64,000 nucleotides of DNA, taken from Escherichia coli. GTDB lineage: Bacteria; Pseudomonadota; Gammaproteobacteria; Enterobacterales; Enterobacteriaceae. The position numbers were made by a program. Position 1 is the stretch's first letter. The number at the start of each line of letters is the position of its first letter. The stretch is from NCBI RefSeq assembly GCF_003334785.1, contig NZ_QOWV01000002.1, one strand, 5' to 3'. Below, piece by piece: positions 47,101 through 50,100 of the stretch.

Positions 47101-50100
47101 CATCAGCCCAACCAGCAAACCGTAGACGATCACCGAACCGATATCTGCGCCCAGCTTATTGGCAACATATAAAGCAGCCGGATGTGGAGGAACCACGCAG
47201 TGCACTGCCATCAATGCGGTACATAGCGGAATGGCAAGCTTTAATAATGAGGTATTGGTTTTTTTGGCAATTGAAAAAGCCAGAGGAATCAATAGCACGA
47301 CGCCCACTTCAACAAACAGCGTGATGCCACAAATCAGGCCAACCAGCACCATAATGACATCAACTGAAAGCCAGCGGCAGCGTTGAAGTGTCAGACCAAT
47401 TCTTTCTGCGGCCCCGGATACTTCCATCATTTTTCCCAGTATCGTGCCAAGGCCGATAACCGCTGCGAGGAACCCCAGCGTTCCGCCAATTCCACTTTCA
47501 ATAGCATTTACCATATCCAGTGGCCCCATGCCCATCATCGTTCCCACGAAGAAGCTGGCCAGCAACAGCGCCAGAAACGGGTGGAATTTGAACTTCACGA
47601 TGGTCAGTACAATTAACACGATGCTGATAAGCAGCGTGCTCACAACCCAGATTTGAGAGTGCATATCTCACCTTCCCCTGTGATTAACCTGATGATATTG
47701 GACAAAAAAACAACGCAGGCTGACAAACGATAAAATTTGCCTTTCACATGAGGTAAATTGCATCAATGGAGTGATTTACATCTAAAAATGAAGGTGAATT
47801 GAGATATGGTTCACTTTAGCTCATCTCATAGCTGAAATTTTGCCGCTATTTTTTTACACTTAAGCGAAAAATGAGGTGATTATGGAACCCCTTCGTGAAA
47901 TAAGAAATCGGCTGCTTAACGGCTGGCAATTATCAAAAATGCATACTTTTGAAGTGGCTGCCAGGCATCAGTCCTTCGCCCTGGCGGCAGAGGAATTGTC
48001 GCTGAGCCCCAGTGCGGTAAGTCACCGTATCAATCAGCTGGAAGAAGAATTGGGCATTCAGTTGTTTGTTCGTTCCCATCGCAAAGTGGAATTAACGCAC
48101 GAGGGGAAACGTGTTTATTGGGCGCTAAAATCGTCGCTGGATACCCTGAACCAGGAAATTCTTGATATCAAAAATCAGGAGTTATCGGGAACGTTAACTC
48201 TGTATTCCCGGCCCTCTATCGCCCAATGCTGGTTGGTGCCCGCATTAGGTGACTTTACACGCCGGTATCCGTCTATTTCGCTCACCGTGCTCACTGGTAA
48301 TGACAACGTCAATCTGCAACGTGCCGGAATCGATTTGGCGATCTACTTTGATGATGCGCCGTCAGCGCAACTCACTCATCACTTTCTGATGGATGAAGAA
48401 ATCCTGCCAGTATGTAGCCCGGAATACGCTCAAAGACATGCTTTAACCAACACGGTAATTAACCTGTGTCACTGTACGTTGCTCCATGACAGACAGGCAT
48501 GGAGCAACGACTCCGGTACGGATGAATGGCATAGTTGGGCGCAACATTATGCGGTTAATTTGCCGACATCTTCTGGAATTGGCTTTGATCGTTCTGATTT
48601 AGCTGTTATTGCCGCGATGAATCATATTGGGGTGGCGATGGGAAGAAAACGCCTGGTACAAAAAAGGCTTGCCAGTGGTGAGCTCGTCGCGCCGTTTGGC
48701 GATATGACGGTGAAATGCCATCAGCATTATTACATCACCACATTACCGGGCAGGCAGTGGCCAAAAATTGAAGCGTTTATTATCTGGCTAAGAGAACAGG
48801 TAAAAACCACTTCATAATGAATAAAACCACGAGTTCCTGGTGTGCCTTATTCGGCCTGCTAGTTCGAATTTAATTTACGGTTTTTATGTGGTTTTAGGGA
48901 TAAACACAAGGATGGTGTCCCCTGCAGACATCTACTTGGAGTGGCAGGGGATTGATTAGAATGGTGTTTTTTAGATGTGAGAAATATTTTACCCGCTATT
49001 TTACCCATTAGCGCGGCTTAAGAGCTTATTTTTGAATTCACAATGGTCACGATATAACCATCTTGCGCGTCCGTGGATAACTTTGGCTTTTGGCAGGTCG
49101 CCGGACTTAATCCGGTCATAGATGAAGGTTTTACCGAAGCCAGTATCAGCCATGATGAATTTCAAATCAACCAGTGAATCAGGCTGTAGTTCGTGTTGCA
49201 TGAGTGCTATCTCCGAATAGGGAATCGAACCTGCAAATCAGGCAATAAAAAACCGCCATCAGGCGTTTTTGTGTTCTTTCAGTTCTTCAATTCGAATATT
49301 GGTTACGTCTGCATGCGCTATCTGCGCCCATATCATCCAGTGGTTATAGCAGTCGTTGATGTCCTCTGCTTCGATAACCCTGTCGAATGACTCTCCATTC
49401 CATTCACCTGTGACTCGGAAGTGCATTTATCATCTCCATAAAACAAAACTCGCCGTAGCGAGTTCAGATAAAAGAAATCCACGCGAGTGCGAGGATTGTT
49501 ATTCACCTTTTACGGCAAGTTGCAGGTTAGCCACGGTTAACCTCCAGTTGTGGTGCTGCCTCAAGAGCAGCCCTGTAACCAGCAGCATGACCGCGAAAGT
49601 TAGCAATCTCTGATAGCCACGCTTTAATCATGGCCTGAGTTGGTTCCTTCGGCACCATAACCCAACCATCCTGAGTTACCGGAGAGTTGCCATCCAGCGC
49701 GTTCAACTTGTAAGCCTGGCTTACAGGTTCGGCACTATGAAGCATGGCAGCGCGGCAGGCGTTCCAGCCTCTCACCTCTGCAATAGCGGCAACAGCATCG
49801 ACCGCGTACATTTTAAGAGGGTTAGGCATTGGTTTTTCTTCAGGTACTACTGGCACTGGAGGGGCGGCATAAACAGGAATAACGTCCGATTGATCTTTAT
49901 TGCTTTCATCCGTTAAAGCCCAGAATAATTTCCCGGCCGGATGTTTGAAAATATAAGCAACAGGCTCTGCTTCCAGTGATGCCAGCACGATACGCGCCAG
50001 CTCACGCACAACTTCCGGCGGCGCGTAACGGTCATTCAGGTCATCCCACAGACGTAGCATGTTATCGCTACCAGGGTGAACATCCTCGTTAGTTCCGGCA

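What the first reader, a model, noticed from the sequence alone, without database searches (positions are those of the whole stretch)
49221..49236. A second argW-derived 16-mer sits 293 bp inside attR, with torI between the two fragments
GGAATCGAACCTGCAA (argW 55463..55478) recurs at 49221..49236 in the same orientation. Together with the attR core it reconstitutes about 31 nt of the argW 3' end, split by the torI gene. It may be part of an extended att homology/arm region or a relic of an earlier integration, and it lies in the torI promoter.
Basis: seen in the sequence. Interest (0 to 1): 0.4.

Follow-up and report, generated by a model that had tools for sequence, protein, structure and literature searches.

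The report
tRNA T-arm copy upstream of torI
A 16-base copy of the argW tRNA's T-arm sits just upstream of the prophage excision gene torI; it belongs to the phage's own DNA, its inner 11-13 bases are conserved across bacterial genera, and it is probably a control site for torI rather than a recombination site or leftover scar.

Summary
GGAATCGAACCTGCAA occurs at 49221-49236 and in argW at 55463-55478, and chance does not explain it. torI and 293 bp separate it from the attR core at 48912-48927.

It is not a relic of an earlier integration at this locus. The same 16-mer sits at the same place in free phages HK620, Sf6 and Kapi1, and in K-12 KplE1. It is not a crossover site or a required att arm:
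- Published in-vitro excision uses a 135-bp attR that lacks it.
- Deleting only the 17-bp core from attB abolishes Kapi1 integration.
- 0 of 5,426 complete E. coli genomes carry a 16-mer x 16-mer recombinant.
- No unsplit attP was found.

It has been seen before. The CUS-3 GenBank record labels it "att core", and the HK620 and Sf6 records place a predicted pI promoter over it.

The new result is that the inner box (CA)GGTTCGATTCC is nearly invariant in ten diverged lineages, usually 29-30 nt before the torI ATG. Only 24% of torI third-codon positions are invariant in the eight compared.

My best reading is a selected protein-binding box in the torI leader. It contains the TorI recognition core GTTCG and equals the T-loop side of attB. 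Binding is untested. Interest is modest.

The parts
49221..49236 (-). 16-mer copy of the argW T-arm (torI-sense TTGCAGGTTCGATTCC), in the torI leader
   Evidence: Exact match to argW 55463-55478. Present at the same place in HK620, Sf6, Kapi1 and K-12.
49221..49233 (-). Conserved inner box CAGGTTCGATTCC (11-mer GGTTCGATTCC = 49221-49231). It contains the TorI recognition core GTTCG.
   Evidence: 0-1 mismatch in 10 diverged lineages. Starts 29-30 nt before the ATG in 8 of them. GTTCG core taken from PMC2951348.
49210..49214 (-). torI Shine-Dalgarno sequence (GGAGA), 6 nt downstream of the box
   Evidence: Read from the sequence. The GGAG block is conserved in alignment A2.
49001..49201 (-). torI (excisionase / RDF, 66 aa)
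   Evidence: ORF list. RefSeq annotation of identical DNA. phrog_66 excisionase.
48987..49008 (-). Two GGGTAAAA-type repeats overlapping the torI stop. They look like IntS arm-type sites of attR.
   Evidence: Read from the sequence. Conserved after the stop codon in all homologous loci. The TAAA motif of arm-type sites is described in PMC2951348. Assignment is inferred.
48912..48927 (-). attR core (CTGCAGGGGACACCAT in tRNA sense)
   Evidence: Direct repeat with 55448-55463. Identical to the published KplE1 16-nt core (PMC2951348).
49237..49272 (-). ATTGCCTGAT spacer plus hairpin and T-run upstream of the box. The mosaic boundary of the recombination module lies here.
   Evidence: Three different upstream contexts join at the T-run. 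Homology to HK022-type phages starts near 49243. The stem is only 4 GC pairs here, and the scan does not call it a terminator.
55449..55523 (-). argW tRNA-Arg(CCT). Its T-arm copy of the 16-mer is at 55463-55478 and the attL core at 55448-55463.
   Evidence: ARAGORN. Sequence.
55354..55441 (-). attL TorI boxes I1-I5 (GTTCG 55437-55441, GTCCG 55417-55421, GTTCG 55374-55378, GTTCG 55364-55368, GATCG 55354-55358)
   Evidence: Box positions. Site cores and spacings as published in PMC2951348.
54130..55323 (-). intS integrase. The ORF runs from GTG at 55323. The likely ATG start is near 55287.
   Evidence: ORF list. phrog_1 integrase. HK620 int annotation.

Best explanation
The 16-mer is a phage-borne copy of the argW T-arm. 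It belongs to the torI-attP-intS recombination module of HK620/Sf6/KplE1-type phages and lies in the short leader between an upstream hairpin and the torI ribosome-binding site.

Its inner 11-13 bases, (CA)GGTTCGATTCC, are kept by purifying selection. I think they are a sequence-specific protein-binding box that controls torI, the gene whose expression decides excision.

The most likely ligand is TorI itself. The box contains GGTTCG, the same hexamer as attL sites I3 and I4, through which TorI represses PintS. Binding 6 nt upstream of the Shine-Dalgarno sequence would give feedback on torI expression, or would block read-through from the upstream early-left operon.

IntS is the alternative ligand, because the box is 11/11 identical to the T-loop side of attB.

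- **Shown:** presence in free phages, conservation, fixed position, and that it is not a crossover site.
- **Inferred:** protein binding and the regulatory effect.

I give about 0.8 to [quoted passage not shown]. I give about 0.35 to the specific operator mechanism.
For: **Carried by the phage**
- The 16-mer is at the same place in HK620 (1677-1692), Sf6 and Kapi1, in K-12, and in 77 of 80 viral contigs with identical TorI.

**Under selection**
- In 8 lineages with 74-100% TorI identity, 10 of 11 box columns are invariant.
- Only 16 of 66 torI third-codon positions are invariant in the same lineages, and mean pairwise third-position identity is 59%.
- Serratia and Hafnia add two more lineages.
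- The flanks diverge, and the E. coli-specific TTGCA is not kept.

**Fixed position**
- The box starts 29-30 nt before the ATG in 8 of 10 lineages.

**Direct-repeat behaviour, typical of protein sites**
- The Erwinia phage carries two tandem copies with a 16-bp period.
- Enterobacter has a degenerate second copy.

**Link to TorI**
- Published TorI sites have the core GTTCG/GATCG/GTCCG.
- The I3-I5 block mediates repression of PintS (PMC2951348).
- In the window, I3 and I4 read GGTTCG.

**Why control at torI matters**
- PMC2951348 argues that control of excision rests on RDF expression, and that this control is not understood.
Against: - No binding data exist for this site.
- Conservation extends 5 nt beyond the TorI core (ATTCC).
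- The base after GTTCG is A in every lineage, whereas it is C or T in all attL sites.
- In E. coli there is a single box, not a 10- or 20-bp-phased array.
- No sigma-70 promoter is detectable nearby, so what an operator would control is unclear.
- Several TorI homologues at argW-type sites lack the box: Tatumella, Klebsiella, Rahnella, Cronobacter, Arsenophonus, Xenorhabdus and some Pantoea/Enterobacter. It is therefore dispensable for the module.
Confidence: 0.35

Rival explanations
1. RNA-level element. The T-loop-like sequence in the torI mRNA leader acts in cis on translation or processing, for example by weak pairing of UUCC with the GGAG Shine-Dalgarno sequence, or by recognition by a T-loop-binding host factor.
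For: - The box lies in the transcribed leader at a fixed distance (6-8 nt) from the Shine-Dalgarno sequence.
- It is absent where torI abuts or overlaps an upstream gene and has no leader (Klebsiella, Rahnella).
- Several predicted folds pair the 3' part of the box with the Shine-Dalgarno region.
Against: - Leader folds are no more stable than shuffled controls (z from -1.45 to +0.90).
- A T-stem is not kept. Only GG/CC flank the loop in most lineages.
- Both segments are nearly invariant, so no covariation can be scored.
- ARAGORN finds no tRNA-like gene at attR in the window or in 17 homologous loci.
- Nothing reaches the Rfam gathering score.
Confidence: 0.15
2. Part of a cII-dependent pI promoter, as predicted in the HK620 and Sf6 GenBank records. 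This promoter would drive transcription through torI and attP into int during establishment of lysogeny.
For: - HK620 annotation: promoter "phage integration" at 1664-1702 with a cII site at 1689-1701, overlapping the 16-mer at 1677-1692.
- Sf6 annotation: "pI; possible integrase expression promoter".
- The E. coli-type sequence reads TTGC-CTGAT-TTGC.
Against: - The repeat spacing is N5, not the N6 of lambda-type cII sites (from knowledge of lambda pRE, pI and paQ).
- The upstream TTGC is TTAC in about 40% of close relatives and in K-12.
- Neither TTGC is kept in the other genera that conserve the box.
- The promoter scan finds nothing.
- Such a promoter would co-express the integration inhibitor TorI.
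Confidence: 0.1
3. Neutral evolutionary relic. It would be the remainder of a longer tRNA-identical attP block, or of an older att site in an ancestral phage, now without function.
For: - It is unquestionably tRNA-derived: 16/16 in E. coli and 15/15 in Serratia.
- Different lineages retain different extra tRNA-identical bases on either side. That pattern is expected from decay of a longer ancestral T-arm copy.
- It lies about 10 nt from a mosaic boundary.
Against: - The inner 11-mer is as conserved as the best-conserved coding stretch of torI, while synonymous sites are saturated with change.
- The position is fixed.
- Tandem duplication is retained in the Erwinia phage.
- No unsplit ancestor-like attP was found in 50,697 phage records or among 120 viral contigs.
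Confidence: 0.07
4. Alternative or true att core. IntS would recombine the two 16-mer copies, as the CUS-3 GenBank record implies by labelling them attL core and attR core.
For: - The two copies are perfect direct repeats that bracket the prophage minus torI.
- CP000711 annotates them as the att cores.
Against: - Such recombination would truncate argW and strand torI in the chromosome.
- 0 of 5,426 complete E. coli genomes carry that junction.
- In-vitro excision uses an attR without the 16-mer (PMC3509656).
- Deletion of the 17-bp core abolishes Kapi1 integration at the locus, 0/24, with the argW T-arm intact (PMC8787464).
- Free phages carry torI between the 16-mer and the core.
Confidence: 0.02

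Closest known systems
KplE1 / HK620 / Sf6 recombination module (attL, attR, intS, torI; Panis, Mejean and Ansaldi 2007; PMC2951348; PMC3509656)
   Same: The window carries this module. It has the identical 16-nt core, TorI 100% identical to many phage copies, the same attL TorI boxes, and int and xis on opposite sides of attP.
   Different: The published site maps, as far as I could read them, cover attL and a 135-bp attR. The T-arm box upstream of torI lies outside them and is not discussed in the papers I could open.
CUS-3 prophage "attL core / attR core" annotation (GenBank CP000711)
   Same: Exactly the same 16-mer pair.
   Different: That record treats it as the crossover site. The experimental and genomic evidence gathered here contradicts this. 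The record consequently omits torI and the real core.
TorI operator sites I1-I5 in attL, and more generally RDFs that double as repressors (P2 Cox, 186 Apl; the latter from general knowledge)
   Same: GTTCG core, with GGTTCG as in I3 and I4. Same orientation as the attL boxes. Located at a gene start that it could repress.
   Different: It is a single box in E. coli, with 16-bp rather than 10-bp spacing where duplicated. The following base is A. Conservation extends over ATTCC. Binding is untested.
Lambda pI, the cII-activated int promoter inside xis (model for the HK620 and Sf6 "pI" prediction)
   Same: Position just upstream of, or at, the xis start. TTGC repeats are present in E. coli-type phages.
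   Different: N5 spacing, a polymorphic half-site, and no conservation in other genera that keep the box.
Displaced tRNA 3' fragments that mark island ends (Islander-type logic, PMC4383910)
   Same: A tRNA-identical fragment in direct orientation downstream of the intact gene.
   Different: The true displaced fragment here is the 16-nt core at 48912-48927. The T-arm copy lies inside the element, is carried by the free phage, and does not include the tRNA 3' end.

Membership tests
att core (IntS crossover site) | Identical sequence in attP and attB, hence a direct repeat at both prophage ends | tested here: met
   The 16-mer is present in argW and at the torI side of the prophage and of free phages.
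att core (IntS crossover site) | Recombination requires it, and the products carry the junction within it | tested here: not met
   - 0 of 5,426 genomes have the 16-mer x 16-mer junction.
- Published excision uses an attR without it.
- Core deletion alone abolishes integration.
- The last two points come from the literature, not from tests run here.
Relic (displaced tRNA fragment) of an earlier integration at this chromosomal locus | The fragment belongs to chromosomal or left-behind DNA and is absent from the free element | tested here: not met
   Same 16-mer at the same distance from torI in free phages HK620, Sf6 and Kapi1.
One tRNA-identity block split by insertion of torI | The two pieces abut without overlap in all lineages, nothing tRNA-like lies next to the core, and unsplit relatives exist | tested here: inconclusive
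   - The pieces abut with a 1-nt overlap in E. coli.
- TTCGAT lies directly beside the core in other genera.
- The box extends 2 nt into core bases in Serratia and Pantoea L091.
- No unsplit attP was found.
TorI binding site (I-site) | Core GTTCG (or GATCG / GTCCG) | tested here: met
   GGTTCG lies within the box in all 10 lineages. Site definition from PMC2951348.
TorI binding site (I-site) | Arrays of direct repeats phased by about 10 or 20 bp | tested here: not met
   Single copy in E. coli. Tandem with a 16-bp period in the Erwinia phage. A GTTCG-like second box 13 nt downstream occurs in only some lineages.
TorI binding site (I-site) | Bound by TorI protein | not testable with these tools
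   Needs EMSA or footprinting.
cII-dependent promoter (lambda pI / pRE type) | TTGC-N6-TTGC flanking the -35 region, plus a usable -10 element | tested here: not met
   N5 spacing. TTGC/TTAC polymorphism. Repeats absent in other genera. No promoter found by the scan.
tRNA gene or tRNA-like T-arm hairpin | 5-bp stem closing the 7-nt T-loop, within a cloverleaf | tested here: not met
   - ARAGORN finds no tRNA at attR in the window or in 17 homologous loci.
- The stem is reduced to GG/CC in most lineages.
- Folds are not significant.
Rfam STnc130 sRNA (antisense strand) | Score at or above the gathering threshold (55 bits) | tested here: not met
   30.4 bits. The 16-mer region is not aligned to the model.

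The most novel reading that the evidence does not exclude
The phage keeps an exact copy of the T-loop half of its own attB in front of its excisionase gene as a regulatory decoy. The recombination proteins that read the tRNA T-arm at the chromosomal site (IntS core-binding domain and/or TorI) would also sit on this box, coupling their concentration directly to torI expression. That would make it a previously unrecognised operator for the decisive step of prophage excision, in a widespread family of argW phages.
Probability: 0.15. Interest if true: 0.6.

Novelty: new member of a known kind. Interest (0 to 1): 0.35.

Why it matters
In this phage family int and xis are transcribed separately. The KplE1 literature concludes that excision is decided by torI expression, and that its control is unknown. 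A conserved, selected box 6 nt upstream of the torI ribosome-binding site that carries the TorI recognition core is a concrete, cheap-to-test candidate for that control.

The work also gives a practical correction. The 16-mer repeat is a trap for prophage-boundary calling. The CUS-3 record uses it as the att core and thereby loses torI and the true core.

Tried and rejected
- **Conserved RNA structure in the leader.** Eight folds gave z from -1.45 to +0.90, and no T-stem is kept. Rejected as the main explanation.
- **Known RNA family.** Only sub-threshold hits, STnc130 and STnc420, driven by the hairpin.
- **Sigma-70 promoter.** None between 48700 and 49700.
- **16-mer x 16-mer recombinants.** A synthetic junction query found 0 of 5,426 genomes.
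- **Unsplit attP.** A synthetic query matched phages only in two pieces with torI between them. All 120 viral contigs with T-loop and core contiguous are true argW genes.
- **First viral-contig search with TorI.** It returned only 100%-identical proteins. This helped to locate the mosaic boundary but not to measure selection. Diverged loci came from genome contigs and the look-up of encoding contigs.
- **Papers I could not open.** Panis 2007 (JBC), Menouni 2013 (PNAS) and King 2007 (J Bacteriol). The full attR site map, any torI transcript mapping and the CUS-3 authors' reasoning were therefore not checked.
- **Gene conversion from argW, or microhomology-driven module shuffling, as the cause of conservation.** Considered and rejected. 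There is no flanking homology, and the mosaic junction lies upstream of the spacer, not in the box.

Full report
**1. The observation**

The 16-mer GGAATCGAACCTGCAA occurs exactly twice in the window, at 49221-49236 and 55463-55478, both on the + strand. A third hit with two mismatches falls in a tRNA-Lys T-arm. Shuffled sequence gives 0.06 hits on average, and none of 100 shuffles reaches three.

ARAGORN places tRNA-Arg(CCT), i.e. argW, at 55449-55523 on the minus strand. The second copy is therefore the argW T-arm, reading TTGCAGGTTCGATTCC in tRNA sense.

The attR core ATGGTGTCCCCTGCAG lies at 48912-48927, and its argW copy at 55448-55463. It equals the published 16-nt KplE1 core (PMC2951348).

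Exactly 293 bp separate the core from the 16-mer, and this stretch holds torI (49001-49201, minus strand). In argW the two pieces overlap by one base, so together they cover 31 nt.

Among the tRNA genes in the window, argW is the best match: 16/16, against Lys 14/16, Val 12/16 and Ala 11/16.

**2. The 16-mer travels with the phage**

The attR-torI region is shared at 95-98% identity with free phages HK620, Sf6, Kapi1, HF4s, N7 and others. The 16-mer is present at the same distance from the excisionase start in HK620 (1677-1692), Sf6 and Kapi1. It is also present in K-12 KplE1.

In these phages the gene order is: hairpin, 16-mer, torI, attP core, int. The 16-mer is therefore phage DNA on the torI side of attP, not a scar from an earlier integration at this chromosomal site.

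Among 80 viral contigs that encode an identical TorI, 77 keep the 16-mer exactly. Three unrelated upstream genes and hairpins join the module at the same point, a T-run followed by ATT(G/A)CCTGAT and then the 16-mer. The element thus lies about 10 nt inside the mosaic boundary of the recombination module.

**3. It has been noticed before**

The CUS-3 GenBank record starts with TTGCAGGTTCGATTCC labelled "attL core". It ends with the reverse complement labelled "attR core". That choice excludes torI and the real core from the "prophage".

The HK620 record places a predicted "phage integration" promoter with a cII site over the 16-mer. The Sf6 record copies this as "pI" and ends its "boundary sequence bsq2" 8 nt beyond it.

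**4. It is not a crossover site or a required att arm**

- The published in-vitro excision assay uses a 135-bp attR. Its inner primer lies at the torI 3' end, about 195 bp short of the 16-mer (PMC3509656).
- For Kapi1, deleting only the 17-bp core from attB abolished integration at the locus (0/24), although the argW T-arm was untouched (PMC8787464).
- A synthetic query representing recombination between the two 16-mer copies (argW 5' part + 16-mer + torI) is covered in 0 of 5,426 complete E. coli genomes. Every match stops at the end of the argW part.

**5. Is it half of a block split by torI?**

A synthetic "unsplit attP" query matches phages only in two pieces about 497 bp apart, i.e. with torI in between. 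All 120 viral contigs that carry T-loop and core contiguously are genuine argW genes.

In other genera the phage DNA directly beside the core is itself T-loop-like (TTCGATGT followed by TGCAGG). This is probably the integrase C-type half-site.

In Serratia and one Pantoea the upstream box extends two bases (TG) into positions that are also present in their core copy.

So the upstream box looks like a second, overlapping T-arm copy rather than the missing half of one block. The evidence for this is suggestive only.

**6. The inner box is under selection**

I collected TorI homologues of 60-100% identity from other genera.

The box (CA)GGTTCGATT(C/T)C is present upstream of the excisionase gene in ten lineages:
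- Escherichia
- Enterobacter
- Citrobacter
- two Pantoea
- Edwardsiella
- Serratia
- Hafnia
- a metagenome bin
- an Erwinia phage, which carries two tandem copies 16 bp apart

It starts 29-30 nt before the ATG in eight of the ten.

In the eight lineages compared (those), 10 of 11 box columns are invariant. Only 16 of 66 third-codon positions of torI are invariant (24%), and mean pairwise third-position identity is 59%. The surrounding leader diverges, including the TTGCA that makes the E. coli version a 16/16 argW match.

A neutral relic would not behave like this.

The box is absent where torI abuts or overlaps an upstream gene (Klebsiella, Rahnella). It is also absent in several more divergent modules that still end in an argW-type core. 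It is therefore not essential to the module.

**7. What it may do**

RNA structure is not supported:
- Leader folds are no better than shuffled controls.
- The T-stem is not kept.
- ARAGORN finds no tRNA there in the window or in 17 homologous loci.
- Rfam gives only sub-threshold hits.

No sigma-70 promoter is found.

The annotated cII site is unconvincing:
- Its spacing is TTGC-N5-TTGC.
- Its upstream half is TTAC in about 40% of close relatives and in K-12.
- Neither half is kept in other genera.

The box does contain GGTTCG. Published TorI sites in attL have the core GTTCG (variants GATCG and GTCCG). The I3-I5 block, where I3 and I4 read GGTTCG in this window, mediates TorI repression of the intS promoter (PMC2951348). 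The box is also 11/11 identical to the T-loop side of attB, which the integrase must contact.

I therefore favour a protein-binding box in the torI leader, with TorI the more likely ligand and IntS the alternative. It would act on torI expression, which the KplE1 literature identifies as the unexplained switch for excision.

Points against this reading:
- It is a single site in E. coli.
- A, not C or T, follows GTTCG.
- Conservation extends over ATTCC.
- No promoter is evident.
- The box is absent in some lineages.

**8. Novelty and verdict**

The repeat itself is already in public annotation, once wrongly as an att core and twice under a predicted promoter. What is new here:
- It is demonstrably not a crossover site.
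- It is not a local relic.
- Its inner box is conserved across genera at a fixed place before the excisionase gene.

This is a new candidate site within a well-known system, of modest interest until binding is tested.

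Noticed in passing
L102 1-16 and L103 1-16 (GenBank CP000711, phage CUS-3): The record delimits the prophage by the T-arm 16-mer ("attL core", "attR core"). It therefore omits torI and the experimentally supported 16-nt core. The prophage ends are probably mis-set.
   Followed up: partly
window 48928-55447: The argW island is only about 6.5 kb. It holds torI, three small early-left genes (phrog_676, phrog_60, phrog_926), the C-terminal half of a tail-spike/fibre gene (50556-51944, +), an O-antigen acetylase (51975-53936) and intS. This is a P22-like remnant, different from K-12 KplE1 (yfdT lies upstream of torI there) and 100% identical over attR to strain VE-F10.
   Followed up: partly
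window 49151-49278 (+): Sub-threshold Rfam match to Salmonella sRNA STnc130 (30.4 bits against a gathering score of 55). It is antisense to the torI 5' end and ends at the hairpin. It could hint at an antisense transcript over the torI start. The 16-mer itself does not align to the model.
   Followed up: partly
window 55354-55472 (attL): The GTTCG of the argW T-arm (55468-55472) lies 31 bp from TorI site I1. The published sites follow at +20, +43, +10 and +10, all near whole helical turns. The tRNA T-arm might be an unrecognised sixth TorI box at the edge of the fragments used for footprinting.
   Followed up: no
L088-L094, L226, L228, L004 (phage side of the attR core): In other genera the DNA directly next to the core reads TTCGATGT(A/T)TGCAGG, which is T-loop-like. 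In E. coli it reads AGTAGATGT. It is conserved even in modules without the upstream box, so it is probably the integrase C-type core half-site.
   Followed up: partly
window 49243-49272: The hairpin upstream of the 16-mer has only a 4-bp GC stem here (AACGCC...GGCGG), against CCGCC/GGCGG plus T6 in HK620. On the + strand it is followed by a T-run, so it could terminate in both directions. The terminator scan did not call it.
   Followed up: no
window 48859-49008 (-): This 49-aa ORF spans the attR core. It is the prophage-side remnant of the small hkaB / Sf6 gene 17 ORF that overlaps attP in free phages and is split by integration.
   Followed up: no
L089 (JAEWEJ010000341.1, labelled Actinomycetes MAG): A 5-kb contig in an "Actinomycetes" metagenome bin carries an enterobacterial-type torI, the T-arm box and an argW-type core. 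It is probably a mis-binned or contaminating contig.
   Followed up: no
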